12,632 nucleotides of DNA from a virus (taxonomy: Duplodnaviria > Heunggongvirae > Uroviricota > Caudoviricetes), in IMG/VR virus record IMGVR_UViG_2778261687_000011, positions 1 to 12,632 of that record. The stretch is one strand, 5' to 3'. Positions 1-12,632 of the stretch are shown here, piece after piece; position 1 is the first letter of the stretch, and each line of letters starts with the position of its first letter. The notes beneath the pieces were generated by a model. It made no database searches and was not told the origin of the DNA. It worked only from the letters and a program-made list of their open reading frames with translations. Position numbers and translations under genes: made by a program.

Positions 1-546
1 AAGCGTGCGTATTGCCTGAAAACACAACCCGCTACGGGGGAGACTTACCCGAAATCTGATTTATTCAACAAAGCCGACTTCCGTCTGATGTCACGAGAGG
101 TCGTAGAGAATATCAAACAGCTACCCGAAAGAAATCTATTTATGAAGGGGGTTCTTTCGTGGGTTGGCGGAAAAACTGATGTTGTAGAATACGTGCGTGC
201 TGAACGTGTCGCAGGTGATTCTAAATTCAACGGCTGGAAGTTGTGGAACCTAGCACTTGAAGGTATAACAAGTTTCTCCACATTCCCGCTGAGGATGTGG
301 ACATACATTGGATTGTTTGTTGCCGGTCTATCTTTTTTATATGGCGCGTGGATGATTGTAAACACTCTTGCCTTTGGCAACCCAGTTCGTGGTTACCCTT
401 CGCTCCTTGTTTCAATCCTTTTCCTTGGCGGAATACAGTTGATTGGAATCGGTGTGTTAGGTGAATATATCGGCAGAATTTATATTGAAACCAAACAACG
501 TCCAAAATATGTTCTAAAAAATGTCAGGAAAGACAGCAATGACTAA
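1..546 (+). CDS. gtrB: Bactoprenol glucosyltransferase GtrB (GT2 family), 5'-partial; continues upstream of the window
   Basis: Frame 1 is open from base 1. The translation [14 protein letters not shown]...[21 protein letters not shown]...[16 protein letters not shown]...[12 protein letters not shown] closely matches my recollection of the GtrB C-terminal half, including the two C-terminal transmembrane helices. The first ~25 codons match less well than the rest. Confidence 0.88.
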
Positions 547-1957
547 CGATTCTAAAAATTTAGGAATTTTACTGTTTGTTGGTTTTTTATATGTGCTCCC
601 TTTCATTATCGGTGGACATTTATACGTAGATGATTTTTTGCGTATAGAGATACCATATGGATGGGATCATAATGGTAGATATTTTTCAACAGTCCTGTCT
701 AATCTCATTGGCAACGGTCATATTCTAATATTATCTCCATTTACTATGATGATTGCAGCGCTGTTCCTCATTTACCCTGCACACAAAATCAGCAGTGTAT
801 TTTTTGGTAGCGAGTTGAGTTTTGCGAAAGCATCATTTTCTTTATCACTTTTACTATCCCCATTTTTTATAAATAATCTTGCCTATCAGTATGATGCAAT
901 TTTGATGTCCGCATCTGTAGGCATGGCTGCGATGGCAGCGTACTACTGTTATCTCGGAGTTTCTTCAAAGCTCTTTTATGCTACAGCATTCATTCTGCTA
1001 ATACTGGCAATTTCATCTTATCAGTCATCTATTGCAGTATACTTATCAATTATATTGATACTAGCCATACACAGCATGATGTCAGGTAAAGCAACTATTT
1101 TTAGTGCTATTAAGTTTTGCGTCATTGCTGGCGTTCTAATGCTTGTTGCATACGCACTATACAAGAAGGTGATTTTTAACCCCGATGATATGAGTGAGTA
1201 TACAAAGATGCGCTCTGAAATGCTGGGCATTGACATGTATACGTTAAAAAACATGTTCACCTCCTATCTTAAATTCAAGGAAATCTTTTATGATTTATTC
1301 CATGGGTTTATAGGAAAAATTTTACTTTTGTATGTTACGCTTCCTTTTGCTGTGATTTTATTAAAAAAAGGATTAAGCTTGCCTGTAAAATTAACGAGTG
1401 TTGTTTTTTACTTGTTTATTATCTTCCTTTCCTTTGGCATGCTACTGATTCTAAAAAATCCACCAGTGACCAGTCGTTCTATGGTTTCGGGCGGAGTGAT
1501 AATCATGGCATCGACAATGATTATTTTTACTAATATCACCTTTAAAAGGCTTGATTGGGTATCAGTTGTGCCGATGGTAATATCATTTATTTTTGTAAGC
1601 TGTTTCTTCATGCTTCAAAATATAAATTATTCCAGAATTGATAATGTCTTAATGCGTACAAATGCAGTCTTATCGCTGCAAAATAAAGATTACCAGAAAA
1701 TTTATCTAAAAATAAACAAACCCAGTTCAGCATCAGAACCATACAGAAAAGCATTTCCTTTCATATACAATATGAATAGATACTTCTATACTGGCAATCC
1801 TTTCATGGATAAAGTCTCCCATTTAAAACTGGGGTATAGTATCTACCCGTGCGATTCTGGTTGTAAAAAAATAGAATCAGATGGAACTGTGAGATTCAAC
1901 GCTCAAAACATGATATTGAAAGAGCGAAATGGACAAGCAATTGTTATAGTGAACTAA
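539..1957 (+). CDS. GtrC-like type-specific O-antigen glucosyltransferase (polytopic membrane protein)
   Basis: ORF of 472-478 aa starting immediately after gtrB (ATG 539 overlaps the gtrB stop at 544-546, AGGA about 10 nt upstream; alternative in-frame ATG at 521 has no SD). Many hydrophobic segments in the first ~370 aa and a hydrophilic C-terminal domain; AT-rich like gtr loci. Assignment is by operon position and topology, not by recognised sequence motifs. Confidence 0.65.
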
Positions 1958-1964
1958 TTATTTT

Positions 1965-1988
1965 GATGCCAACACTTTTGTTGGCATC
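1965..1988 (+). terminator. Perfect 10-bp hairpin (gatgccaaca-cttt-tgttggcatc) just after the gtrC-like stop; candidate intrinsic terminator or mRNA-stabilising stem-loop
   Basis: Inverted repeat read directly from the sequence; followed by accTTTgc, a weak U tract. Confidence 0.4.
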
Positions 1989-2020
1989 ACCTTTGCAAAC
2001 TCATTAGTGGGCTGATCTAA

Positions 2021-2690
2021 ATGGCAAAAACAGACATTAATAACGGAGTTGTAGTTGCACGTTTTATTGCTATATTGCTGGTAGTTTTACTACATGCCAG
2101 TGCCGGACCTTTCGGGGCTAAACTCGCTCCTGACTGGGAGTGGGCCAATATTTACAGCGCAATATCGAAACAATGCATTGGTATTTTCATTGTCATAACT
2201 GGCTTTCTCTATGCAAATAAAGAAATTGAGTTTAAAGGCTTCATCCTTAAAGGAATAAATCTCCTTGTAATTCCACTGGCGTTTTGGTGGGTAATTTACG
2301 CAGCATATTTGATACTTTTTAAAAATGCAGGCATAGATAGTTTTAGCCCTATGAAACCATCAAGCATACACCTTTGGTTTATGTACGATTACATTGCAAT
2401 TTATCTTTTTGTTCCAATGATAGTTATGGGATGTAGAGAAATAAGAACGCGCTATAGCCTTTTGATATTCGCAGTTCTGTTTTACAGCACATCCTTATAC
2501 CCAGAGCTTAATGCAATAGGAATACCCGCTCCGAAGATAAACGTTCCATTTGCAAGTTATTTAATGCTCTATGTTTTTGCAGGTTACATAGCTGCACGCA
2601 AGGAAGATTTAATAATTAAGTACAGGATTGTATTTGCTCTCCTTTCATTGACACTTTCCGTTGTTACCATTTATGTTAATAAAGGGATAC
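2021..2690 (+). pseudogene. Acyltransferase family 3 (Oac/OafA-like O-antigen acetyltransferase) gene, 3'-truncated at about 2690
   Basis: N-terminal ~224 aa are hydrophobic with acyltransferase-3-like segments (VVARFIAILLVVLLHASAGPFG, IFIVITGFLY, HLWFMYDYIAIYLFVPMIV). At about 2690 composition switches from AT-rich to GC-rich and the rest of ORF 2021..3250 becomes Arg/Pro/Ser-rich nonsense that is the reverse strand of phage genes. Full-length family members are about 330 aa. Confidence 0.6.
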
Positions 2691-3030
2691 CGAATTCAAT
2701 CAGGCGCCAGTGTGGCGTCGGGGCGTTTTCACCGAGATCAGGATGTTTTTTCAGGACTGCACCATGCAGCACGCCGATCCTAAATCCGAGGTTACCGGTG
2801 GTTTTGAAGATGCGGTTGTTCCATCGCATAGCCACGTTTGCGGCAATGCTGCGGCCTGTTAACGGGTCATCAATCCTGGCGGCGTTCGCTTTTGCTTTTT
2901 CGACAATCACGTTACCAGCGCGCCGGAGTGCGGCCCGTCCACCGCGACGACGCAGATCGTCACTGATGGATGATAGTTTCCCCACCAAACTCTCAACTCC
3001 AGTAATGCTGATATCAATGCCGTCAGCCAT
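2671..3030 (-). CDS. HK97 gp10-family tail-completion/head-tail joining protein, C-terminally truncated at the junction
   Basis: Translation contains IDDPLTGRSIAANV...TPHWRLIEFG, typical of the HK97 gp10 family, but ends 5 codons after EFG with residues (IPLLT) encoded by AT-rich non-phage DNA. Family members normally continue about 40-50 aa further. GAGGAG SD upstream of ATG 3030. Confidence 0.65.
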   Translation of the reverse strand: MADGIDISITGVESLVGKLSSISDDLRRRGGRAALRRAGNVIVEKAKANAARIDDPLTGRSIAANVAMRWNNRIFKTTGNLGFRIGVLHGAVLKKHPDLGENAPTPHWRLIEFGIPLLT

Positions 3031-3355
3031 CGTTCACTCCTCGCGAGCATGGCAGCGTCAGATATTCCCGGCCGCTTTTATCGTCTTCCAGCACGCCCTG
3101 AATATCGTAAACGCGTCCACGGTAAAGAATGCGGTGCTTATCCGTGACATCATCACGCCAGCGAATAGTGATCCGTGTGGTTACCTCGTTTTGTCCGGCC
3201 TGCGCGGCCACAAAATCGCGAGCAGACAAATCGGTAACGTTGGCCCATAGCTCAGCCATGTCAGCCCATCCATTAACCACCGCGCCGGTAACCGGGCTCT
3301 GCGTTTTAACAGGCTTCTGAAGCATGATTCGTTTATTGAGCTTCCCCGCCTGCAT
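3023..3355 (-). CDS. Phage head-closure / head-tail adaptor protein
   Basis: 110-aa ORF in the expected position between connector and gp10-like gene; ITIRWRDDV...RILYRGRVYDIQGV resembles the head-closure family; AGGGGG SD upstream; 8-nt overlap with the downstream gene. Confidence 0.7.
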   Translation of the reverse strand: MQAGKLNKRIMLQKPVKTQSPVTGAVVNGWADMAELWANVTDLSARDFVAAQAGQNEVTTRITIRWRDDVTDKHRILYRGRVYDIQGVLEDDKSGREYLTLPCSRGVNDG

Positions 3356-3357
3356 GA

Positions 3358-3537
3358 TTACCCCCTGGGCTTGCCGCTGAGGTAAGTATGCTGTGGAAGT
3401 TCAGCTTCACTCTCTTCAACTACCATTGACTGGTAGATCACCGCCGTCAGAGCTTCGTTTGACTCCGCCAGCCGATTCATCGCTGCTGTCTGGGCTGCCA
3501 TTGCTGTCAGCAGCTGGTTTACCTGTTGCTCGTTCAT
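3358..3537 (-). CDS. Small hypothetical protein (59 aa), head-module gene not present in the ORF track
   Basis: Hand translation of the minus strand gives MNEQQVNQLLTAMAAQTAAMNRLAESNEALTAVIYQSMVVEESEAELPQHTYLSGKPRG with a natural helical composition; its stop lies 2 nt before the head-closure ATG. Weak SD. Competes with the overlapping ORF 3416..3607. Confidence 0.4.
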   Translation of the reverse strand: MNEQQVNQLLTAMAAQTAAMNRLAESNEALTAVIYQSMVVEESEAELPQHTYLSGKPRG

Positions 3538-3597
3538 AGGCGATTTTCATCCACTTTTTTAGCCACTCACGGCGGGCGGCACATCCTGAACAGGCCA

Positions 3598-3930
3598 TCA
3601 GTGCCACCTCCTGTGCTGCATCAGTAGTGCTTCAACTCCAAGCGGTAGCTCAGAAGTAATATTTCCGACATTGACTGCTTCCCGGTTTGCGTACCAGTGA
3701 CCGATAAGAAGCAGCATTGCCGCCCATATGCCGGAAGTGAAAAGGATCTCACGTGGCGGCATTTCCCCTTCCACTGGCGGCGTCAACGACTCCACCAGCG
3801 TGCCGTCGCAGAATTTCTCAACATAATCGACGGCAGCCGATGCGTAGGCCGCAATAAGAGAATCTTCGGCGTCGCTATCAACCCTCAGATGCGTCTTTAT
3901 CTGCGCCATCTGCTCCGCGCTTATTTCCAC
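3598..3930 (-). CDS. Phage gp6-like head-tail connector protein
   Basis: N-terminus AQIKTHLRVDSDAEDSLI and C-terminal HWYANRE...LPLGVEALL are characteristic of the gp6-like connector family. GTG start at 3930 with GGGGT upstream; an in-frame ATG at 3909 is an alternative start. Confidence 0.75.
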   Translation of the reverse strand: MEISAEQMAQIKTHLRVDSDAEDSLIAAYASAAVDYVEKFCDGTLVESLTPPVEGEMPPREILFTSGIWAAMLLLIGHWYANREAVNVGNITSELPLGVEALLMQHRRWH

Positions 3931-4120
3931 CTTTACCCCCGGTTTTGGCTTTTACAGGCTGTTCAGGATCGGAGGTTTTCGCCTTTTCGGGATCAACCTC
4001 TTCGGCCAGGTGCAGTTTTACCAGCGCTTCGCCGATTTCTTTCTTCACTACGCGGGTTTCGCCCTGGGATACTGTACCCAGGTGATAATGCGAGAACATA
4101 CGAAGAGCTTTAATTTTCAT
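3878..4120 (-). CDS. Hypothetical small protein immediately downstream of the major capsid gene
   Basis: 80-aa ORF starting 37 nt after the capsid stop; the N-terminal ~55 aa look protein-like, the Gly/Lys-rich C-terminus overlaps the gp6-like start by 32-53 nt and may be frame noise. No clear SD. Confidence 0.3.
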   Translation of the reverse strand: MKIKALRMFSHYHLGTVSQGETRVVKKEIGEALVKLHLAEEVDPEKAKTSDPEQPVKAKTGGKGGNKRGADGADKDASEG

Positions 4121-4156
4121 ACATTAAACGCGGCCATTGCTGACCGCGTCCTCCTG

Positions 4157-5320
4157 TCAGGAGCCAGCAGAAACCGCAATATCGCCAGTGACGATAGCTG
4201 CAGGACGATAGTGCGCCAGCGCCAGGCGTTCTTCGCACAGGATGGTCAGCATGTTTTTAACGAAGTTATCGCGATCCTGGTTGCTGATCTCGATAGTGGC
4301 ATCCATGCGGTCCCACACCTGCGATGCCAGACCAAACGCACCAACGGTAAATTTGCCTGCCGTCTGCGCCGTGGTCGAAACTACCGGCAGACCCCAGAGC
4401 ACTTTGGAGGCAAAGGCCTGTGGGCCGCCAAGGATGTAATTGCCGTTAGCATCTTTCAGCAGCGCGATACGGTGCCAGTCCGCCGGGTTGAGAATGATAC
4501 CGTCGGCTTCAAACTCGCTCAGCGACACCTGATAGATTGCATGCGCCAGAACATCAGCACCGGTATCTCCGGTCGCGTTGAGTGCAGTTTCGTAGTCGTT
4601 CGCCACCACGTTCAGCCCCTGGAGGTTGTCGCCGGTGCCATCACCGTTCAGCATCTGGTTTTCTTCCACCAGCGCCAGGCCATACATCATGCGGGAGTTG
4701 ATGTAGGACTGCAGTGCCGGGGCATCGTCCATGATCTGGCGCGACGCCTGGATCCAGTGAGCGATGGTTTTCACGTTCGCCGTTTCTTTGGTGAAGGTAA
4801 TGTTACTTTCCGGCTTGAGGGTACCTTCCGCCACTGGCGCCGCGGCGTTGGTAAACACATTTTCACGCACGTATTCAAGCGCGTTACTGGTGATGCGCCC
4901 CTGCGCCAGCAGGTCACGTACGGTCAGGCGACGCAGGCCCGGCATAAGGATACCCGGTTGCTGCTGCGGCAGAACCAGTGCGCCGGCGGAGTTCGCGCCA
5001 GAGCCGATCGCTTTGTCGAAGCTGGTCACTTTCGCTTTGGTACGTGAGCCGTCCCAGCCTTTCATCAGGTCTTCGGACACGCGTTCTGCAAAGGATTTCT
5101 GGGCGGTCTGTTCAGGCGAGTTGCCAGCCAGCTTCTGCTCAAGATCGAACAGTCGAGTGCCGGTGGCTTTCAGCTCATCCTGGGCTTTCGCCAGGTCGGT
5201 CTGCAGCTGCTTGTTGATTTCGCCGTTCTGGTTGATGGATTTACGCTGTTCCTCGATAAGCTCCTTCACTTCTTTCTGGGAGTTCTCGATCGCTTTTTCC
5301 AGGGTTGCTAATTCAGACAT
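4157..5320 (-). CDS. Major capsid protein, HK97 family (with N-terminal delta/scaffolding domain)
   Basis: 387 aa; coiled-coil N-terminal ~100 aa followed by a capsid domain, the same size and architecture as HK97 gp5; sits directly after the prohead protease gene; GGAG SD. Confidence 0.92.
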   Translation of the reverse strand: MSELATLEKAIENSQKEVKELIEEQRKSINQNGEINKQLQTDLAKAQDELKATGTRLFDLEQKLAGNSPEQTAQKSFAERVSEDLMKGWDGSRTKAKVTSFDKAIGSGANSAGALVLPQQQPGILMPGLRRLTVRDLLAQGRITSNALEYVRENVFTNAAAPVAEGTLKPESNITFTKETANVKTIAHWIQASRQIMDDAPALQSYINSRMMYGLALVEENQMLNGDGTGDNLQGLNVVANDYETALNATGDTGADVLAHAIYQVSLSEFEADGIILNPADWHRIALLKDANGNYILGGPQAFASKVLWGLPVVSTTAQTAGKFTVGAFGLASQVWDRMDATIEISNQDRDNFVKNMLTILCEERLALAHYRPAAIVTGDIAVSAGS

Positions 5321-5331
5321 GTTTTGCTCCG

Positions 5332-6012
5332 TTAGGGATTCCGCAGGTTAGCGGCAAAGGAAGTTATGCGCTGTGCCAGCGCGTCAATGTCGCCGCCGCC
5401 GAACTCGCTTCGGCCTGCGGACTTCACGCGGGCGATAAACGCCTGCGCTTCAGCACGCGTAAGGCCGACTGAATCCCTCAGCCAGGCCTCCGCGTCACGA
5501 ATGGTTTTAATGCCGTCAATGCTCTTCATGGCGGTTACGCCCGCCAGTTCGTTGGCCGGGAATGTGCAGACACTGATTTCCCGCAGATAAGTAATGTTTT
5601 TGAAAATGAGGCCGGACGTGCCGACGGTGTAATCGTCAGGGCCGACTGAAAAACCCACCGACATGCCTTCAACCGTGCCATGCTGCATGGCGGCCTTCAG
5701 ATCCTCGGCCAGGCTCAATCTGGGTGTGAGCTGCCCTCGGACATAAAGCCCCTTCTCGTCTTCGTGCATGGCATCCCATTTGCCAACCGGGATGGCTCGC
5801 GTCTGGTGGTTGAAGAACATCGCCACCTTGCGGCTCTGGTTAGCCACCACACCAGCGAAAGCCCCGGGCAAAATAATGTCGCCGTCGGCGTCGGTGTTAT
5901 TGAAAACCGAGGCATACCCTTCAAACGTTCCCTTGCTGCCGTCGCCGGTGAACTTGATTTCGGTCTGGTCGAACGCCAGCGTCTTGTGAATATCAGGCAT
6001 CGTGGCCCCCAT
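5332..6012 (-). CDS. Prohead maturation protease, HK97 family (peptidase U35/S78)
   Basis: 226 aa, between portal and capsid genes; sequence ADGDIILPGAF...GLYVRGQL...FSVGF is typical of HK97-type prohead proteases. An alternative ATG at 5998-6000 (M5) has a better SD. Confidence 0.9.
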   Translation of the reverse strand: MGATMPDIHKTLAFDQTEIKFTGDGSKGTFEGYASVFNNTDADGDIILPGAFAGVVANQSRKVAMFFNHQTRAIPVGKWDAMHEDEKGLYVRGQLTPRLSLAEDLKAAMQHGTVEGMSVGFSVGPDDYTVGTSGLIFKNITYLREISVCTFPANELAGVTAMKSIDGIKTIRDAEAWLRDSVGLTRAEAQAFIARVKSAGRSEFGGGDIDALAQRITSFAANLRNP

Positions 6013-6039
6013 AAAAATTAAGCCCCGTCATTGCGGGGC
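6011..6039 (-). terminator. Terminator-like hairpin (GCCCCG-CAAUGA-CGGGGC) plus UUAAUUUUU at the portal/protease boundary; possible attenuator
   Basis: Read from the sequence; the stem encodes the last portal codons and the U tract runs into the protease start. Confidence 0.25.
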
Positions 6040-7289
6040 TCTTTGTTTGTTCCGAGGTCGGTAATGGGAACGTTCTGCGACTGGCGCGTCGCCACATCAC
6101 CGCCAGGCAAAGGCGGAAGATTATCCAGTCGCCGCACTTCGTTAACGGTACGGATCCCTGTATTAACCATGGTTTGCATGAAGGTAGCGCGGCTCGCTGA
6201 GTCACCACGAAGCAGGCCATCAAGGTTATGCTCGGCGTGCAGCCTTCCCTGATCGGACTCTTTTACCAGCCAGCGCTCTATGCTGTACTCCCAGCGATCG
6301 AGATAGGGCTTCAGGGTGTACTGGAGAAAGCCGAGGTTCTGCTGTTCAATGCCGCTGCCCCATGAAGTTGTTTTTTCAACATCACCAACCAGGTGCGGCG
6401 GAACACCGTAAAAGCGCGCCAGCTCTGCCACCTGAAACTTACGGGCCTCAAGCATCTGTGCGTCCTGCGGCGAGATGCCTATCGGCTGCGTGGTGAACCC
6501 GCTCTCAATGATCCAGAGGCGTTTTCTCACCGGGCCGCCGGCAATCTCCTTAAAGTTTTCCTCCAGCTGTCCGCGCTGCTCTTTGGTCAGCACCTTGCCG
6601 TCAGTCATCAGGATTTGCGGTGATTTGGCGCCGTTGGCGAAAAACTCCCGCTGGTTATCTTCCATAGCAATAGCCACGCCTGCAGATTTGGCGCTGAACG
6701 CCAGCGGCGATAACCCGACCAGCCCGTTAAAGCCGAAGCCTTTCAGGTGGAATATTTCTTTCGGCTTAAAGTCCACATACTCGCTGTCGCGCCGGTACCG
6801 GTAGATGACATTTTTTCCATCGAGCCGGACATCCATATTCGCGCTCATCAGCGGAAGCAGGCTGATGACATCGCCGACGCTGTTTCGCTCCACATGCGCG
6901 TAGGCATTGCCGTAGGCGCAAAGCTGCATTGTCATTGCCTCGCGAAACTCCAGCGCGGTCATGAAGTTGTTGGGCCGGAAGCGAAGAAGCTTCGCCAGCG
7001 GGTTCTGGTTGTCGACTTTCTTTCGCTGATCATCGATGGTTTCAAAAACATCCAGCGGTAACGAGGCTGTTACGGTGGAGATGAGCCGGATGCAGGCCCA
7101 TACGGTGCTGATCGACATGTTGCGCTCATCGCTCACCACCGATTCCCCGACGGTGCCGTGAGCTGATGTGCCCGCCATCTGCGAGCCATTATCCGGTGAA
7201 ACCAGGCGGCCACCGGTCAGAATAGAGGCCATGCGCGCCCAGAATGGCGATCGCGTTCGCAGGTCAATGCTGTAATCGGTATCTGCCAT
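6018..7289 (-). CDS. Portal protein, HK97 family
   Basis: 423 aa, immediately downstream of TerL and upstream of the protease; size and position match the HK97 portal family. Confidence 0.9.
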   Translation of the reverse strand: MADTDYSIDLRTRSPFWARMASILTGGRLVSPDNGSQMAGTSAHGTVGESVVSDERNMSISTVWACIRLISTVTASLPLDVFETIDDQRKKVDNQNPLAKLLRFRPNNFMTALEFREAMTMQLCAYGNAYAHVERNSVGDVISLLPLMSANMDVRLDGKNVIYRYRRDSEYVDFKPKEIFHLKGFGFNGLVGLSPLAFSAKSAGVAIAMEDNQREFFANGAKSPQILMTDGKVLTKEQRGQLEENFKEIAGGPVRKRLWIIESGFTTQPIGISPQDAQMLEARKFQVAELARFYGVPPHLVGDVEKTTSWGSGIEQQNLGFLQYTLKPYLDRWEYSIERWLVKESDQGRLHAEHNLDGLLRGDSASRATFMQTMVNTGIRTVNEVRRLDNLPPLPGGDVATRQSQNVPITDLGTNKEPRNDGA

Positions 7290-7291
7290 TT

Positions 7292-8824
7292 TTAAACGCT
7301 CAAAAAGTTGTAAATGAAATCGTTAACGTCGCCCGGATCCTCCACCTCATCACTGGTCTGTGCGCCGATAGACATCGCCAGCGCCACCATGCCGTCGATA
7401 CGGCCGCTCGATTTGCCTTTCACAAACTTGCGGTTACCGGCGGGGTCGGTGATTACCGTGGCGTTTTTGGCGCACATCTCGAGGATCGGATGGTTGCCGT
7501 GCTTCAGTTGCGCGCCGAGCAGTTTAGCTTCCAGCTCCCTGAGCGCAGGCGACATGGAGACAAAACCCTGGCCGAATTCCACGAACCGCTCGAGCTCCGC
7601 CTCAGTGAAACCGGCGTCGATGAGATGCGGGCGAAGGAAGCGCATGTTGTAGCGGTCGAACGCCAGCGCCCGGACGTTACAGATATCAAAAACGCGCCGC
7701 AGCTCCCGTGCAATAAAGGCGTACTCAATGGCTTTGCCCGGCGTCGTGTTCAGCCAGCCCTGCTTCGCCCATATGTCATAAGGCACGCGATCGTTACGCG
7801 CCTTGTCCGCCAGCCCCTCTTCAGGTAGCCAGAACTTACAGTGCACATCGCCCTGCGTTGTGTTGAGCACCAGCGCGGTCAGGTCCGACACGCTGGAAAG
7901 GTCCAGCCCGCCCCAGACGGTAGCGCCCGCCAGTTCGCCAGGCTCTTCTTTGTTCATGTGCCAGACGGTCTGGCTGACGAACGGGCTTTTCGCCTCAACC
8001 CTGCGGTTCAGTACAAGGTTCTCAAATTCAGCCTGGCGCGACGGGAGGCGCTTGGCGCTGGCGGCCATATCCAGCACTTCTTTCTGGTTCATGAACACAT
8101 CGAAGGCCGGGTTAGCCAGCCTGATGGCTTCGACAGAGAAAGGATCGATATCTTCCGGCGCGGTCTGCAGCCGTACCACCGTTCGCGGATCGGCACCGGT
8201 CAGGCCATCATCAATCAGCAGGCTGAGCAGGTCGCTCGCATCGGGTGCCTGGGTGCTGATGATTACCGAGATAGGGTTGTCCTGAGCAGCGGTCGCGGTT
8301 TCCAGAGCTTCATAAAGCGGGTCACGCGGCCCGCGCACCTGGCCCAGCTCATCATGGGCGACAAATCGCGGCGAGAAACCGTAGGCCGTTGTGGCCTCAG
8401 CGCTCAACGCGCGATAGTAAGAGCCCAGTTCAGGGCAGTGAATCTCTTTGGCTGAATCTTTTATGGCAACGTATTGCATCAGTGTCGGATTCATACGACA
8501 CATTTTCGAAGCAAGGTTAAACAGAATTGCTGCCTGATCGCGTGATCGGGCTGCGGAATACAATTGTGAGTTAGGCGCTGATTCGGGACCAACCAGATAA
8601 AGCAGCATGATTATCGCTGTCTCTACCGTCTTGGCGTTCTTTCGCCCCCTGCTGATAATCGCGCGGCGAGTACCATGCTCATTATCAAATATTGCTCTGA
8701 AGTCATCCTTCATGAAAGGAGCCATCTTCAGAGGCTGGCCTACGTACTTCCCTTCAGGGATCAGGATGTGTTTCTCACACCAGGCTATATTGCGCTCAGC
8801 CCTTGTAAGCTTTTTTTTCGCCAT
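7292..8824 (-). CDS. Terminase large subunit
   Basis: 510 aa; Walker A-like SRGRKNAKT near the N-terminus, Walker B-like FVAHDELG, C-terminal nuclease-like region; follows the TerS gene after a 13-nt gap. Confidence 0.92.
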   Translation of the reverse strand: MAKKKLTRAERNIAWCEKHILIPEGKYVGQPLKMAPFMKDDFRAIFDNEHGTRRAIISRGRKNAKTVETAIIMLLYLVGPESAPNSQLYSAARSRDQAAILFNLASKMCRMNPTLMQYVAIKDSAKEIHCPELGSYYRALSAEATTAYGFSPRFVAHDELGQVRGPRDPLYEALETATAAQDNPISVIISTQAPDASDLLSLLIDDGLTGADPRTVVRLQTAPEDIDPFSVEAIRLANPAFDVFMNQKEVLDMAASAKRLPSRQAEFENLVLNRRVEAKSPFVSQTVWHMNKEEPGELAGATVWGGLDLSSVSDLTALVLNTTQGDVHCKFWLPEEGLADKARNDRVPYDIWAKQGWLNTTPGKAIEYAFIARELRRVFDICNVRALAFDRYNMRFLRPHLIDAGFTEAELERFVEFGQGFVSMSPALRELEAKLLGAQLKHGNHPILEMCAKNATVITDPAGNRKFVKGKSSGRIDGMVALAMSIGAQTSDEVEDPGDVNDFIYNFLSV

Positions 8825-8837
8825 TCGCTAATCAGCC

Positions 8838-9272
8838 TTAATCAATTTCCCAGGGCTTTTTCTCCCGAGCCAGATTGCTGTTGGCCCGGCCAACAGTTTT
8901 GGGATCGGCAGTAGCCTGGCGGGTAATCCGCAGGCGGGTCGCAAGAGAAGATGCCGATCGCACCTCGCGCTCGCGCATCGTGAGCAGCCTGTCGTAGCGC
9001 TTCAGCCCGTCTTCGCGGGACAACCACTCGAGCTCAAACTCTTCAATCTGGGTGGTGAGCAGCCGGGCCTGCACCACATGCCGACAGTACATCTCCAGCA
9101 TGTCCCGGTGTGTTTCGGTGAATGAGCTGGCCGGGTTGTCATTAACCAGCCGGACCCAGACGTTAATCTCCGGATCGCTCAGGTGAATGGACGGCTGCAA
9201 CCTGCTTTCAGCCAGTGCCGGCAGCGAGACAGCAGACGTCGCAGCCAGAGACTTTCTGCCTCGCTGTGCCAT
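8838..9272 (-). CDS. Terminase small subunit (probably P27/HK97-like family)
   Basis: ATG at 9270-9272 (aa 45 of the longer TTG-initiated ORF 8838..9404) preceded by AAGGA. Basic N-terminus MAQRGRKS; position directly upstream of TerL and downstream of HNH. The family name is an inference. Confidence 0.72.
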   Translation of the reverse strand: MAQRGRKSLAATSAVSLPALAESRLQPSIHLSDPEINVWVRLVNDNPASSFTETHRDMLEMYCRHVVQARLLTTQIEEFELEWLSREDGLKRYDRLLTMREREVRSASSLATRLRITRQATADPKTVGRANSNLAREKKPWEID

Positions 9273-9404
9273 CGCGTTTTTCCTTTTTTTCTGGACGTTT
9301 TTAAAAATAAAACTGGGAGCGCGGTCTTTAAGAATTTGGTACCAGAGTTTTACCCCTCCCCCTCCCTTACCAACATAAATATGAGAATTGATATCATTTC
9401 TCAA

Positions 9405-9614
9405 TTACGTGTAAGCTTGAGTGAGGTATGCCAGAGGGCACCAGACGATCACCAACGCCGATTGGCAATGTGAGGGTAATGGTAGGGTAATGGTAGGCAG
9501 CATCTCACCGACCTCATGATTGAAGGAGACTGCAGTGGCATGTTTAAAGCTCACGCTATCAATGCTCAACTCAATCAACTTCCCATCACGGTATTCAATC
9601 TTCATGTCTTGCAT
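9405..9614 (-). CDS. Hypothetical small protein between HNH and terS genes (may instead be non-coding cos region)
   Basis: ATG preceded by AGGAG that overlaps the HNH stop (translational-coupling geometry); the N-terminal ~40 aa look natural, but the C-terminal part reads through an 11-bp tandem repeat. Confidence 0.35.
   Translation of the reverse strand: MQDMKIEYRDGKLIELSIDSVSFKHATAVSFNHEVGEMLPTITLPLPSHCQSALVIVWCPLAYLTQAYT
9473..9497. repeat. Tandem direct repeat, about 2.3 copies of the 11-mer agggtaatggt, in the HNH-terS interval
   Basis: Read directly: agggtaatggt agggtaatggt agg. Coordinates may be off by 1. Confidence 0.55.
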
Positions 9615-9626
9615 CAACTACTCCTG

Positions 9627-9917
9627 TTACCAGATAACACGGCCTTCATTATCGAACTCGGTGACCGTTCCGCCCTTCTCCATCCTCTGCTTTACCGAGT
9701 CGTGGCAACGTTTGCAAAGTGACTGAAGATTATCCGGATCATGAAAGAGCCTATCGTCTCCTTTGTGCGGGATGACATGGTCAACGATCGTTGCCGCTAT
9801 CACCTGATTGCGCCGGAGGTGGAACTCACAAAGAGGTTGCTTCTGAAGCTGGTGATAGCGGAGTCGGTACCAACGCTTGGAATTGTAGAGGCTATGCCAA
9901 GGTGAATTGGATGCCAT
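9627..9917 (-). CDS. HNH endonuclease (terminase-associated)
   Basis: 96 aa with Cys/His pairs (CEFH...DHVIPH...CKRCH) typical of phage HNH proteins; lies upstream of terS as in HK97-like cos phages; GAGGGAG SD. Confidence 0.88.
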   Translation of the reverse strand: MASNSPWHSLYNSKRWYRLRYHQLQKQPLCEFHLRRNQVIAATIVDHVIPHKGDDRLFHDPDNLQSLCKRCHDSVKQRMEKGGTVTEFDNEGRVIW

Positions 9918-10119: not shown

Positions 10120-10653
10120 ATGAGTCTGGAAAAATTGCTAATCAAAGATAGAAAATGTGGTTCATGTTCTGTTTGTTGTAAATCCCTGAGAATCGAAGAG
10201 CCAGAGCTTAAAAAATTTGCTGGAGTGCCATGTCAGCATCTTAAAGCACAGGGCGGATGTTCGATTTATAATGATCGCCCATCTCTATGTCGTACGTGGT
10301 ACTGCGGATGGAGAGTTTTAGGTATCGGTCCGGAAATGAGGCCTGATCGTTGTGGTGTTCTTATTCGCTTCGATGGCAAAGCTCTGTGCTTTCAGCCAGT
10401 AAATGATGGTCAAGTTACTACATTGCTTGATCCAGAGCCTTTACGTGTTTTAAGCAGTTCAATTGCAAATGGGATGACCGTTCAGATTTCGATTCCGACA
10501 AAAGAAGGCTTTTGCTCTTCAAATGTCGACGTTACAGCAGCTATGACCGAGGTAGTTAAAACCAGAGAGTTTGATAAGATTCGTGCAACTATGATTGGAT
10601 TAATTCAATTCGCTGCGAATTCGAAGACAGACCCGATTGCTCCTTTAAATTAG
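10120..10653 (+). CDS. YkgJ/UPF0153-family cysteine-cluster protein (CxxCxxCC putative zinc/iron-chelating domain); moron
   Basis: 177 aa with N-terminal CGSCSVCC then C..H...GGCSIYNDRP..C....C, matching the CxxCxxCC domain family that includes flagellin lysine-N-methylase FliB. Strong SD AAGGAGG 9 nt upstream. Lower GC than the flanking phage genes and opposite orientation to the late operon. Confidence 0.75.
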   Translation: MSLEKLLIKDRKCGSCSVCCKSLRIEEPELKKFAGVPCQHLKAQGGCSIYNDRPSLCRTWYCGWRVLGIGPEMRPDRCGVLIRFDGKALCFQPVNDGQVTTLLDPEPLRVLSSSIANGMTVQISIPTKEGFCSSNVDVTAAMTEVVKTREFDKIRATMIGLIQFAANSKTDPIAPLN

Positions 10654-11278: not shown

Positions 11279-11471
11279 TACTGGCCTCTCTGGTGACTTC
11301 TGCCTGACGTTCTGCCACTGCAACCTTCGCCGCTGCGTTTTCTTCAGTGCGTTGTTGATCGGCTTTCGCTTCTGCTTTGCTGGTTCCGCGAATATGGCCA
11401 AGACCAAACCCACCAGCAGCGGCAACACAGATAGCACCAATGACACCAATGATGATTTCTACAATGCTCAT
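11199..11471 (-). CDS. Inner-membrane spanin (Rz-like, i-spanin)
   Basis: 90 aa with one N-terminal transmembrane helix (IVEIIIGVIGAICVAAAGG) then a charged Ala/Glu/Gln-rich coiled-coil-like region; start overlaps the endolysin stop (ATGA); contains the o-spanin start. Confidence 0.6.
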   Translation of the reverse strand: MSIVEIIIGVIGAICVAAAGGFGLGHIRGTSKAEAKADQQRTEENAAAKVAVAERQAEVTREASNVQQKVNHMPGDDVDRELRTNWTRKG

Positions 11472-11998
11472 GCAATCACCGCTTTCGCTTTGCCGTAACG
11501 CACGCGTCTGTCGTTAATGCCGTTCTGACCGCCATTGATAATCTGAGTGATGCGCACCAGGTCATCGGTGTACTTCAGGCAACCTTTGGAGGCGTAGAAC
11601 CATGCAGCAGAACGCGCAGCATTGATGTCTTTCTCCAGCAGTTCAGGGTTAGTAACCAGGTCAAGCTTCAGACCATTGCCGCAATCACGGTAATTGGTGA
11701 GACCGGTAATCTGAATTAATCCGCGCCCACGGTATTTCCAGCCATCACCAGCAGCTTTATTACCCAGGCGGTTGCTGTATACCAGGTTCGCGATAGCTTC
11801 CTGACTTGCTGGCTTACCGTTGGCACGTCCAAGCATTAAGGCCTGGTAGTTCGTTACCCGGCGTCCAAACGTCGTCAGTAATGCGGCAGGCGTGTAGTTG
11901 AAGTTCTCCACCAGCGCAGAGAATCCCGCCGATTCATGTCCTACCTGAGCAATGAACATCGCCTTATCTTTTGGTTCAGTGATGCCGAACTCTTTCAT
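11468..11998 (-). CDS. Endolysin, glycoside hydrolase family 19 (chitinase-like), missing about 25-30 N-terminal residues
   Basis: FIAQVGHESAGF...GDGWKYRGRGLIQITGLTNYR...ITQIINGGQNGINDRR are GH19 endolysin motifs. The frame stays open and homologous-looking upstream of M1 for about 15 codons, then hits a stop at about 12044 with no start codon. No holin gene upstream. Confidence 0.85.
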   Translation of the reverse strand: MKEFGITEPKDKAMFIAQVGHESAGFSALVENFNYTPAALLTTFGRRVTNYQALMLGRANGKPASQEAIANLVYSNRLGNKAAGDGWKYRGRGLIQITGLTNYRDCGNGLKLDLVTNPELLEKDINAARSAAWFYASKGCLKYTDDLVRITQIINGGQNGINDRRVRYGKAKAVIA

Positions 11999-12032
11999 TG
12001 CATCCGTACAGGCTAACCATGAGCATAGTTCG

Positions 12033-12632
12033 ATGTCACGCGTTTACAGGTGGGGATATCAACGTGGATTTGTGCCAGGCAACCCATGCGTAGGCGTCGA
12101 TAAATACCCTAAACCTCAGCGCGACCGATACATTACGGATGAAGAGTATTTAGCAATTTATGACTGTGCTACTGATCCGGTAAAAGCCGCAATGGAAATT
12201 GCTTATCTCTGTGCAGCGAGGGTTTCCGATGTTCTGAAAATGGACTGGAATCAGATAATGGATAAAGGAATTTTCATTCAACAGGGTAAAACTGGAGTTA
12301 AGCAGATTAAAGCGTGGACAGACCGCTTGCACTCCGCTGTCAATCTTTGCAGGAAATCAGGGGAAGATGGCGCTGTCATCAAAACCATGTACGGAGAGCG
12401 ATATTCCTATAAAGGTTTCAATGAAGCCTGGAGAAAGGCTAGGAATGCGGCTGCTGAAAAAATTGGCAGACCGTTAGACTGCACGTTCCATGATCTGAAG
12501 GCGAAAGGCATTTCTGACTATGAAGGAAGTGGCCGTGATAAGCAAAAATTCAGTGGTCACAAAACTGAATCACAGGTGTTGGTATACGACAGGAAAGTAA
12601 AAATTAGCCCAACTTTAAACAGAAAAATGTGA
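12033..12632 (+). pseudogene. Lambda-family tyrosine integrase, C-terminal catalytic domain only (5'-truncated)
   Basis: Catalytic-domain motifs ARVSD (Arg-I), QQGKTG (Lys), TFHDLK (His), GHKTESQ...LVYDR (His, Tyr) with spacing parallel to lambda Int; the N-terminal arm-binding and core-binding domains are absent. The preceding part of ORF 11952..12632 is the reverse strand of the endolysin 5' end. Stop codon at the window end. Confidence 0.75.

What the first reader, a model, noticed from the sequence alone, without database searches (positions are those of the whole stretch)
2660..2710. Junction A: truncated acyltransferase fused tail-to-tail to truncated gp10-like gene; tail module missing
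Seen in sequence: at about 2690 the composition switches abruptly from AT-rich to GC-rich. The acyltransferase-3 ORF loses protein-like character there, and the minus-strand gp10-family ORF ends 5 codons after its conserved HWRLIEFG motif, with those last codons coming from the AT-rich side. Established knowledge: in HK97-like phages the gp10 gene is followed by major tail, tape-measure and tail-tip genes, and Oac-like acyltransferases are about 330 aa. Inference: a deletion or illegitimate recombination removed the 3' end of both genes and the whole tail module.
Basis: partly seen in the sequence, partly recalled or inferred. Interest (0 to 1): 0.5.

Follow-up and report, generated by a model that had tools for sequence, protein, structure and literature searches.

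The report
Deletion scar in a decaying prophage
This is the scar of a roughly 8.5-12 kb deletion inside an E. coli prophage remnant that removed the phage's tail genes and cut two genes short, which is an ordinary step in prophage decay.

Summary
GC content steps from 0.35 to 0.56 at about 2690. The plus-strand acyltransferase (AT3/Oac-like) matches its intact 328-aa form only up to codon 223 (window 2689). The minus-strand HK97-gp10-like gene keeps 114 of 161 codons, then adds 5 foreign codons (IPLLT*). The two parental sequences share only "TA" (2688-2689).

The window is 100% identical to an E. coli draft contig, and the same junction ORF occurs in at least 10 contigs, so it is not an assembly artefact. 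The element lies between two copies of a ~63-nt tRNA-Ser repeat, between mtfA and yodB, so both sides of the junction belong to one prophage.

Sibling E. coli loci with the identical GtrC carry the full acyltransferase followed by a convergent tailspike. Intact relatives (97.8% identical) carry a full tail module after gp10. The deletion was about 8.5 kb, or about 12.4 kb if the distal tail genes were still present.

The most likely mechanism is short-homology illegitimate recombination; no IS element is present. This is ordinary prophage decay.

One side observation is unexplained. Across sibling variants, deletion breakpoints are reused and cluster on GGT(N)ACC palindromes, including this one.

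The parts
88..546 (+). 3' part of gtrB (bactoprenol glucosyltransferase); the gene is cut by the window start
   Evidence: NCBIfam glycosyltransferase profiles match positions 159-304 of 308. The full 310-aa PF00535 gene is called at this place in L002.
539..1957 (+). gtrC-type O-antigen glucosyltransferase (472 aa), intact
   Evidence: PF14264 Glucos_trans_II, E = 6.9e-25. The identical protein is found in 56 blocks of the collection, always after gtrA-gtrB.
2021..2689 (+). Truncated O-antigen acyltransferase (AT3/Oac-like), codons 1-223 of 328
   Evidence: PF01757 profile positions 6-228 of 326. 100% DNA identity to full-length alleles in L016, L012, L010 and others up to 2689, unrelated afterwards. 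The full-length protein P0121 is 328 aa.
2688..2689 (.). Deletion junction: the dinucleotide TA shared by both parents
   Evidence: The left parent reads ...AAAGGGATA|GTTCATGG. The right parent (reverse complement) reads ...TCTCGG|TACCGAATTC. The window reads ...AAAGGGATACCGAATTC. The right-hand breakpoint lies inside a GGTACC / TCGGTACCGA palindrome of the intact gp10 gene.
2690..3030 (-). Truncated HK97-gp10-family gene, codons 1-114 of 161. The called ORF is 2671-3030 because it runs on for 5 foreign codons (IPLLT) to a stop in acyltransferase DNA.
   Evidence: PF04883 E = 2e-7. TIGR01725 positions 1-86 of 120. Relatives at 97-99% identity are 161 aa. DNA alignment to L006/L007/L008.
2021..3250 (+). 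Chimeric read-through ORF (409 aa): 223 acyltransferase codons followed by 186 codons of antisense gp10 and head-closure DNA. It is a by-product of the junction.
   Evidence: The ORF list and translation show arginine/proline-rich sequence after residue 223 that does not look like a protein. The Pfam match stops at residue 219.
3023..9917 (-). Retained head and packaging half of the late operon: head closure, 59-aa gene, connector, 80-aa gene, capsid, protease, portal, large terminase, small terminase, HNH
   Evidence: Pfam PF05521, PF05135, PF05065. PF04586, PF04860, PF03354 and PF01844 in the identical loci. 97.8% identity to intact prophage L024 over 2688-9917. 82.5% identity to Klebsiella phage KPP5665-2 over 3019-8000.
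12005..12008 (.). Second deletion junction of the same element (lysozyme 5' end joined to an internal point of the integrase gene); shared tetranucleotide CGTA
   Evidence: Parents identified in L012; position in the window. The lysozyme ORF is 176 aa here against 203 aa in L012/L027.

Best explanation
The junction is the scar of one internal deletion in a serotype-converting lambdoid (HK97-like head) prophage integrated at tRNA-Ser(CGA), between mtfA and yodB, in E. coli.

In the ancestor the late operon ran ...head closure - gp10 - tail completion - tube - chaperone - tape measure - (distal tail genes) - tailspike. It met head-on the cargo operon gtrA-gtrB-gtrC-oac, which is transcribed inward from the att end.

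An illegitimate, RecA-independent joining between two sites sharing only TA removed everything from gp10 codon 115 to oac codon 224. That is 8,531 bp if the distal tail genes had already been lost, as in sibling variants, or about 12.4 kb otherwise.

The result is a tail-less, non-inducible remnant. It keeps an intact gtrABC operon and the head genes. The acyltransferase is dead: its C-terminal third is missing and it is fused to 186 nonsense codons. The gp10 fragment is also dead.

Shown: the truncations, the parental sequences, the position of the crossover, the single pair of att repeats, and the recurrence of the junction in independent assemblies.

Inferred: the enzymology of the joining, the loss of acetyltransferase function, and which ancestor state the deletion acted on.
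For: - The window is 100% identical to L003, an NCBI E. coli draft.
- The exact 119-aa junction ORF is present in 10 contigs from NCBI assemblies and independent Logan read sets. NCBI labels it E. coli.
- The left parent is 100% identical up to 2689 and then continues as a full 328-aa acyltransferase, with a convergent 812-aa tailspike downstream.
- The right parent is 97.8% identical from 2688 onward and continues as a 161-aa gp10 plus a tail module.
- There are only two copies of the ~63-nt tRNA-Ser 3' repeat, 14.4 kb apart, and they bracket both sides of the junction.
- No transposase or IS sequence lies at or near the junction.
- All seven junctions in sibling variants whose parents could be identified show 2-5 nt of microhomology. 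By my calculation a random join has P = 0.156 of showing 2 nt or more.
- The deleted span measures 8,531 bp on the composite ancestor.
- The AT3 domain needs 10 transmembrane helices (PMC7448272), and here profile positions 229-326 are gone.
- E. coli illegitimate recombination resembles microhomology-mediated end joining (PMC11372144).
Against: - Two nucleotides of microhomology at this junction alone is within chance (P about 0.16), so the short-homology mechanism rests on the family-wide pattern.
- No assembly was found that carries the direct ancestor (the lysozyme|int junction but an undeleted late region). The size of the deletion is therefore reconstructed from siblings and from relatives at 97.8% identity.
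- The breakpoint clustering on GGT(N)ACC palindromes suggests the initiating lesion may not be random, which plain slippage or end joining does not explain.
Confidence: 0.9

Rival explanations
1. The deletion was not random illegitimate recombination. It was started by a sequence-directed cut or binding event at a short palindrome, CGGT(N)ACCG / GGT(N)ACC, and the broken end was then joined to a site sharing 2-5 nt. The agent could be a restriction-type nuclease, or the prophage integrase acting on a look-alike of its core site. This is a rival for the mechanism only, not for what the feature is.
For: - The window's gp10 breakpoint lies inside TCGGTACCGA.
- On a 22,983-nt composite ancestor there are 16 GGT.?ACC sites, and 4 of 10 distinct breakpoint sites fall within 2.5 nt of a site centre. 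In a family-wise permutation over all XXX.?YYY motifs, 0 of 4000 random sets did as well.
- Three of the five CGGT.?ACCG sites are breakpoints.
- Three further junctions, examined after the motif was defined, read GGTAACC, GGTAC| and TGTA^CC at the join.
- Breakpoint sites are reused to within 1 nt in different variants.
- The anticodon stem of the tRNA-Ser attachment site is CCGGT/ACCGG, the same half-site.
Against: - The motif was defined after seeing the data, and unbiased fixed-length k-mer tests are not significant (P = 0.08-0.75).
- The sample is ten or so junctions from one prophage family, and some may be serial derivatives of one another.
- GGTACC and GGTNACC are targets of different known restriction enzymes (my knowledge).
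- A 0-1 nt spacer is unlike a tyrosine-recombinase core.
- The partner site in the acyltransferase gene has no such motif.
- No nuclease, methylase or active integrase was identified. The integrase is truncated in the window-type loci.
Confidence: 0.25
2. The junction is an assembly or scaffolding chimera that joins an AT-rich gtr/oac contig to an unrelated phage contig.
For: The abrupt GC step and the two truncated genes look like a mis-join when only this window is seen.
Against: - The identical junction ORF is in 10 contigs from different projects and assemblers (NCBI GCA_012386995.2 and GCA_002226155.1; Logan SRR9914100 and DRR031242; six more not shown), in contigs up to 67 kb.
- The overlap between the two parents is 2 nt, far below any assembler k-mer.
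Confidence: 0.01
3. Instead, an AT-rich gtr/oac cassette (a moron, or a separate island) inserted into or recombined next to a phage that was already truncated, or two neighbouring elements were fused.
For: The gtr/oac module is compositionally foreign (GC 0.35 against 0.56). It also occurs with a different integrase at another chromosomal site (L013), so it is mobile between phage backbones.
Against: - Sibling loci at the same site, 99.9-100% identical in shared DNA, show the same module with full-length oac followed by the tailspike and further late genes of the same phage.
- Only one att pair brackets the whole element, with no third copy between the halves.
- An insertion would not truncate the inserted gene's own 3' end at the same point.
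Confidence: 0.03
4. The deletion was made by an insertion sequence (adjacent deletion) or by homologous recombination between repeats.
For: IS elements do visit this element: an ISL3-family transposase sits upstream of gtrA in L011.
Against: - No IS or IS end remains at the junction. The sequence passes directly from oac to gp10.
- The parents share only 2 nt.
- None of the seven resolved sibling junctions carries an IS.
Confidence: 0.02

Closest known systems
Serotype-converting temperate phages with O-antigen modification cargo at the att end (Salmonella P22 gtrABC, Shigella Sf6 oac, SfV/SfII/SfX gtr, E. coli phiV10 oac)
   Same: - The gtrA-gtrB-gtrC (+oac) cargo sits between the att site and the tailspike gene and is transcribed against the late operon. 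That is the layout seen in undeleted sibling loci.
- The attachment site is a tRNA gene.
- gtr operons on prophages and on prophage remnants at fixed chromosomal loci are documented in Salmonella (PMC3688519).
   Different: - The acyltransferase is at most 26.5% identical to any Oac in 50,697 sequenced phage records (phiV10 26%).
- The virion module is HK97-like siphoviral, not P22-like.
- In this window the cargo operon has lost its last gene's 3' end and the phage has lost its tail.
- The P22, Sf6 and SfV gene orders are from my own knowledge and were not tested here.
Intact HK97-like siphophages and prophages with the same head module (Klebsiella phage KPP5665-2, ST16-OXA48phi5.3, KpF5; uncultured/enterobacterial prophages L024/L025)
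   Same: - The order and sizes of large terminase (510 aa), portal (423), protease (226), capsid (387), connector and head closure (110) are the same.
- Identity is 82.5% (Klebsiella phages) and 97.8% (L024/L025).
- In all of them the gp10-position gene is followed by about 12-13 kb of tail genes.
   Different: The window stops at gp10 codon 114. In the Klebsiella phages DNA similarity ends at the start of gp10 (window 3019), so their gp10 and tail genes are a different mosaic module.
Cryptic (defective) prophages of E. coli formed by successive deletions, and short-homology illegitimate recombination as studied with lambda Spi- phages
   Same: - Loss of morphogenesis genes with retention of cargo.
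- Junctions with a few nucleotides of homology and no IS.
- E. coli illegitimate recombination is described as similar to microhomology-mediated end joining (PMC11372144; PMC3375238 listed).
   Different: Here at least seven differently deleted versions of one nearly identical prophage coexist in the species at one locus. Their breakpoints are reused and sit on GGT(N)ACC palindromes, which I did not find described in the papers I read.

Membership tests
HK97 gp10 family (Pfam PF04883, NCBIfam TIGR01725) | Significant match to the family profile above the curated cut-off | tested here: met
   PF04883 scores 32.3 bits against a cut-off of 21.4. TIGR01725 scores 40.9 bits against a cut-off of 30.8.
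HK97 gp10 family (Pfam PF04883, NCBIfam TIGR01725) | Full-length protein, covering the whole equivalog profile and the length of close relatives | tested here: not met
   Only profile positions 1-86 of 120 are covered. The protein has 114 native residues against 161 in all relatives at 70-99% identity. The DNA alignment shows the break after ...EFG.
Acyltransferase 3 (AT3, PF01757) O-antigen acetyltransferases (Oac-like, AT3-only) | Match to the AT3 profile above the cut-off | tested here: met
   83.3 bits against a cut-off of 31, E = 2.1e-23.
Acyltransferase 3 (AT3, PF01757) O-antigen acetyltransferases (Oac-like, AT3-only) | Complete 10-helix membrane domain (about 320-335 aa) | tested here: not met
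   Profile positions 229-326 are absent. 223 of 328 residues are retained. The AT3 domain has 10 transmembrane helices (PMC7448272).
Acyltransferase 3 (AT3, PF01757) O-antigen acetyltransferases (Oac-like, AT3-only) | O-acetylation activity on O-antigen | not testable with these tools
   This needs LPS chemistry or serology. Loss of function is inferred from the truncation.
gtr-type serotype-converting prophage | gtrA-gtrB-gtrC operon next to the attachment site, inside att repeats at a tRNA gene | tested here: met
   L002 has gtrA (120 aa), gtrB (310) and gtrC (472) next to the yodB-side repeat. The two 63-nt repeats correspond to the 3' part of tRNA-Ser(CGA).
Intact (inducible) tailed prophage | Complete tail module, full-length integrase, and early/regulatory region | tested here: not met
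   There are no tail genes. The integrase is a fragment of 199-226 aa joined to a truncated lysozyme, and no early genes lie between the integrase and the lysis genes.
Microhomology-associated illegitimate deletion | Both parental sequences identified; junction with a few shared bases; no filler DNA; no mobile element or recombinase site | tested here: met
   Parents at 100% and 97.8% identity, a TA overlap, and no extra bases. Sibling junctions have 2-5 nt.
Type IIA topoisomerase (gyrase / Topo IV)-mediated illegitimate recombination | Breakpoints fit the cleavage determinants -4G/+8C, -2A/+6T, -1T/+5A | tested here: not met
   The determinants come from PMC12324340 and PMC10117906. Centred on GGTACC, the window's site TTCGGTACCGAG matches only +1G/+4C (my comparison).

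The most novel reading that the evidence does not exclude
Decay of this prophage is not random. Deletions start at short palindromes, CGGT(N)ACCG / GGT(N)ACC, whose half-site equals the anticodon stem (CCGGT/ACCGG) of the tRNA-Ser attachment site. This implies a sequence-directed agent that repeatedly breaks the prophage at the same few sites. Candidates are the phage integrase acting on pseudo-core sites, or a restriction-type nuclease. The broken ends are then joined through 2-5 nt of homology. Junction A would be one product of this process.
Probability: 0.2. Interest if true: 0.55.

Novelty: new member of a known kind. Interest (0 to 1): 0.25.

Why it matters
For annotation, it tells curators three things. 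The 119-aa "HK97 gp10 family protein" and the 409-aa ORF are junction artefacts (pseudogenes). The element cannot make tailed particles. The strain probably glucosylates its O-antigen but no longer acetylates it through this locus, which could affect serotyping and phage susceptibility.

More broadly, the locus offers a natural series of at least seven differently deleted, otherwise near-identical copies of one prophage at one chromosomal site, all with base-resolved junctions. This is useful material for studying how prophages are whittled down while cargo genes remain. If the clustering of breakpoints on GGT(N)ACC palindromes is real, it would point to a directed component in prophage decay.

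Tried and rejected
- Megablast of 1900-3500 against 50,697 phage records found nothing.
- The same query against 5,426 complete E. coli genomes hit only the acyltransferase half, in two genomes at 92-95% identity. The element is therefore absent from complete RefSeq E. coli genomes and had to be traced through draft assemblies.
- A scan of one genome per GTDB species for the full-length acyltransferase found no relative.
- The IMG/VR scan gave one 12.5-kb contig (L023) with a 92% acyltransferase and an 86% tailspike but no head or tail context, so it did not help size the deletion.
- Gyrase / Topo IV as the source of the breakpoint motif was rejected, because the published cleavage determinants do not fit.
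- Unbiased tests for a shared fixed-length 3-, 4- or 5-mer across breakpoints were not significant. Only the gapped-motif family test was.
- L043 looked like a new variant from its gene calls but is identical to L027.
- The left parents of the integrase-side junctions of L012 and L027/L041 could not be found in any fetched locus.
- The 177-aa ORF (10120-10653) is a widespread lambdoid cargo gene (404 blocks) and gave no new variants of this element.
- I considered hairpin-mediated slippage at the palindromes and rejected it: a 4-bp stem with a 0-1 nt loop cannot fold (my reasoning).
- A Chi-like octamer (GCTGGTCG) lies 4-5 nt from one reused breakpoint. It is a 7/8 match seen at a single site, and I treated it as coincidence.

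Full report
**What is in the window.** On the plus strand, the AT-rich left part holds the 3' part of gtrB (88-546), a GtrC-type glucosyltransferase (539-1957, PF14264) and an AT3 acyltransferase ORF starting at 2021. From about 2690 the sequence is GC-rich and carries, on the minus strand, an HK97-like late operon read right to left. It runs HNH, small and large terminase, portal, protease, capsid, connector, head closure (3023-3355) and a gp10-family ORF (2671-3030). GC is 0.353 for 521-2689 and 0.555 for 2690-9917. The maximum-likelihood change point is 2684-2703, and the two flanking 200-nt blocks differ with p = 8.7e-5.

**Both genes are truncated at the join.**
- The acyltransferase matches PF01757 over profile positions 6-228 of 326.
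- The gp10 ORF matches TIGR01725 over positions 1-86 of 120.
- A database search found the exact 119-aa junction protein, labelled E. coli by NCBI. Its 70-99% identical relatives are all 160-162 aa.
- The closest full-length acyltransferase, P0121, is 328 aa. It differs from the window's first 223 residues by one substitution.

**The junction is real and recurrent.** The window is 100% identical to NLGV01000045.1 of E. coli assembly GCA_002226155.1 (L003). The exact junction ORF is encoded on 10 contigs, including another NCBI assembly (a 67-kb contig) and independent Logan read-set assemblies. This rules out a one-off chimera.

**One prophage, one pair of att sites.** In the longer contigs the order is: mtfA - tRNA-Ser(CGA) - integrase fragment - truncated lysozyme - 90-aa gene - 177-aa gene - HNH - terminases - portal - protease - capsid - connectors - head closure - gp10' | oac' - gtrC - gtrB - gtrA - two small ORFs - yodB - zinT - msrQP. 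A ~63-nt direct repeat (23 + 39 nt with one mismatch between them) is present exactly twice, 14.4 kb apart. It corresponds to tRNA-Ser from the anticodon arm to the 3' end, and it brackets everything. Both halves of the junction therefore lie inside a single att-bounded element.

**The parents.**
- *Left parent.* Looking up the identical GtrC protein showed the same chromosomal locus in other E. coli assemblies with a full 328-aa acyltransferase followed by a convergent 812-aa tailspike (L010-L014, L016-L019). Their DNA is 100% identical to the window from gtrB up to window 2689.
- *Right parent.* Looking up the identical capsid and large-terminase proteins found intact prophages (L024, L025, L044) that are 97.8% identical to window 2688-9917. 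After a 161-aa gp10 they carry tail completion (121 aa), tube (165), chaperone (160 plus a frameshift product), a 227-aa protein, tape measure (815), three distal tail proteins and a 1029-aa GpJ-like tip. More distant relatives (L006-L008, about 92%) show a tailspike gene after GpJ.
- *Closest sequenced phage.* Klebsiella phage KPP5665-2 (82.5% over 3019-8000) has about 13 kb of tail genes after the gp10 position.

**The crossover.** The left parent reads ...AATAAAGGGATA|GTTCATGG. The right parent, in window orientation, reads ...ATTCTCGG|TACCGAATTCAATCAG. The window reads ...AATAAAGGGATACCGAATTCAATCAG. Only TA (2688-2689) is common to both. There is no filler DNA and no IS. The gp10 reading frame then continues into the reverse complement of acyltransferase DNA for five codons (I P L L T, stop at 2671-2673). 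The acyltransferase frame continues through antisense phage DNA to 3250.

**Size of the loss.** The 180-aa ORF next to the tailspike in the sibling loci is 55-59% identical to the last 183 residues of the GpJ-like protein. The most complete siblings have therefore already lost about 3.9 kb of distal tail genes in an older deletion. On a composite ancestor (sibling DNA plus L024 for the missing 1.8 kb), the span from the gp10 breakpoint to the oac breakpoint is 8,531 bp. If the window's ancestor still had the distal tail genes, the loss was about 12.4 kb. I could not find an assembly with the direct ancestor.

**Mechanism.** For seven junctions in this prophage family both parents could be identified. 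They share TA, TTA, TA, GGTA, GGTCA, CGTA and TAC(C). A random join has a 0.156 chance of 2 nt or more (my calculation), so the family as a whole shows microhomology use. This fits RecA-independent illegitimate recombination in E. coli, which has been likened to microhomology-mediated end joining (PMC11372144). For Junction A alone, 2 nt is not significant.

**Consequences (inferred).**
- The acyltransferase lacks the last third of a domain that needs 10 transmembrane helices (PMC7448272) and is almost certainly inactive.
- gtrA, gtrB and gtrC are intact.
- The element has no tail genes, no early region and only an integrase fragment, so it cannot excise or form infectious particles.

**A decay series, and an unexplained regularity.** At the same locus, DNA that is 99.9-100% identical occurs in at least six structural states:
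- L027/L016/L043: head closure joined to the chaperone gene.
- L028: head closure joined to the GpJ remnant.
- L019/L018: a holin gene joined to the chaperone gene.
- L012/L014: the 90-aa gene joined to the GpJ remnant.
- L010/L011: HNH joined to the tailspike, plus the lysozyme|int junction.
- The window type: gp10|oac, plus the same lysozyme|int junction.

The window type and the L010 type share the lysozyme|int junction (window 12005-12008), so they descend from a common ancestor that later suffered different late-region deletions.

Three breakpoint sites are each used in two different junctions, to within 1 nt. The junction sequences cannot tell independent hits at hot spots from serial deletions that each start at an earlier scar.

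Four of ten distinct breakpoint sites, including the window's gp10 site (TCGGTACCGA), lie within 2.5 nt of the centre of one of only 16 GGT.?ACC sites in the 23-kb composite. A permutation test over all motifs of that form gave 0 of 4000. Three of the five CGGT.?ACCG sites are breakpoints. Three integrase- and Q-side junctions examined afterwards read GGTAACC, GGTAC| and TGTA^CC at the join. Against this, fixed-length k-mer tests were not significant, the motif was defined after seeing the data, and the sample is small.

The half-site equals the anticodon stem of the tRNA-Ser attachment site, CCGGT/ACCGG. I record that as a lead, not a finding. Type IIA topoisomerase determinants do not fit.

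**Comparison with what is known.** The undeleted layout (cargo gtrABC-oac between att and the tailspike, convergent with the late operon, at a tRNA gene) is that of classical serotype-converting phages, from my knowledge of P22, Sf6 and SfV. gtr operons on prophages and prophage remnants at fixed loci are documented in Salmonella (PMC3688519). The acyltransferase itself is only 26.5% identical, at most, to any in sequenced phages. The feature is therefore a new example of a well-known kind: a deletion scar in a cryptic serotype-converting prophage.

**Verdict.** Interest is low (0.25). What raises it slightly is the natural deletion series and the possible sequence-directed breakpoints.

**Caveat on ascertainment.** The variants were found by looking up GtrC, the capsid, the large terminase and the acyltransferase. 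Variants lacking all of these would not have been seen, so "gtr is always retained" cannot be concluded from these data.

Noticed in passing
window 12005-12008 (ORFs 11468-11998 minus strand and 11952-12632 plus strand): A second deletion junction in the same element. The 5' end of the GH19 lysozyme gene (176 aa here, 203 aa in L012/L027) is joined to an internal point of the integrase gene through a shared CGTA. This removes the holins, antiterminator Q and whatever early genes remained. The L010/L011 variants share this junction.
   Followed up: yes
L010-L019, L027, L028, L041-L043 (same yodB-mtfA locus as the window): At least six structural states of one 99.9-100% identical prophage coexist in E. 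coli, each with a different internal deletion. All those sampled keep gtrABC, and all but the window type keep full-length oac. The sampling was biased by the proteins used for the look-ups.
   Followed up: yes
composite ancestor sites A (= window 3283-3296), B, C; L016 19465, L019 9636, L028 12033, L012 15220: Three breakpoint sites are each used in two different junctions, to within 1 nt. They are the head-closure site CCCGGTTAC, the chaperone site TTTATCCGACC and the GpJ-remnant site GTCGGTACCCGAA. This means either hot spots or serial deletions that each start exactly at an earlier scar.
   Followed up: partly
window 2688-2697 (retained half of TCGGTACCGA); intact motif copies at window 3286, 6793, 7431, 9659: Breakpoints cluster on GGT(N)ACC / CGGT(N)ACCG palindromes: 4 of 10 sites against 16 motif sites in 23 kb, and 0 of 4000 in a family-wise permutation. 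Three later-examined junctions also show the motif or a 5-of-6 version of it. The cause is unknown. Gyrase / Topo IV determinants do not fit.
   Followed up: partly
L002 223-285 and 14586-14648 (att repeats); tRNA-Ser at L002 194-283: The att identity block starts inside the anticodon arm of tRNA-Ser(CGA). The anticodon stem CCGGT/ACCGG has the same half-site as the breakpoint palindromes. This may be coincidence and was not tested further.
   Followed up: no
L019 5177-5719 (minus strand), also in L016/L018/L012: The 180-aa ORF beside the tailspike is the C-terminal 183 residues of a ~1030-aa GpJ-like tail-tip protein (55-59% identity). It marks an older ~3.9-kb deletion of the distal tail genes in the sibling variants.
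   Followed up: partly
L013 (ERR4317646 contig), 8717-14951: The identical gtrA-gtrB-gtrC-oac module plus the C-terminal two thirds of the same tailspike sits at a different chromosomal site (near trp/ompW), in a different phage backbone with a 393-aa integrase. Similarity ends inside the tailspike N-terminal region, which is a typical mosaic boundary.
   Followed up: no
window 10120-10653 (+): A 177-aa ORF with no Pfam match, on the opposite strand between the HNH and lysis genes. The exact protein is recorded in 404 blocks of the collection and sits at the same position in many unrelated lambdoid prophages with different head modules. It looks like a widespread cargo (moron) gene of unknown function.
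   Followed up: partly
L001 (E. coli CUPF12, NZ_CP182159.1) 6002-6973: A 92% identical 323-aa acyltransferase lies beside an integrase remnant at tRNA-Asn, on the other side of mtfA. It is directly adjacent to a resistance island (qnrS1, aac(3)-IId, IS26, Tn3 fragments).
   Followed up: no
L011/L035 7339-8559 (locus L011 coordinates): An ISL3-family transposase is inserted between the att-side small ORFs and gtrA in one variant, just upstream of the gtr operon.
   Followed up: no
L016 19440-19465 (gtr orientation): A 7-of-8 Chi-like octamer (GCTGGTCG) lies 4-5 nt inside the retained side of the twice-used chaperone-gene breakpoint, in the orientation that RecBCD coming from the deleted side would meet. 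It is a single instance and I treated it as coincidence.
   Followed up: no
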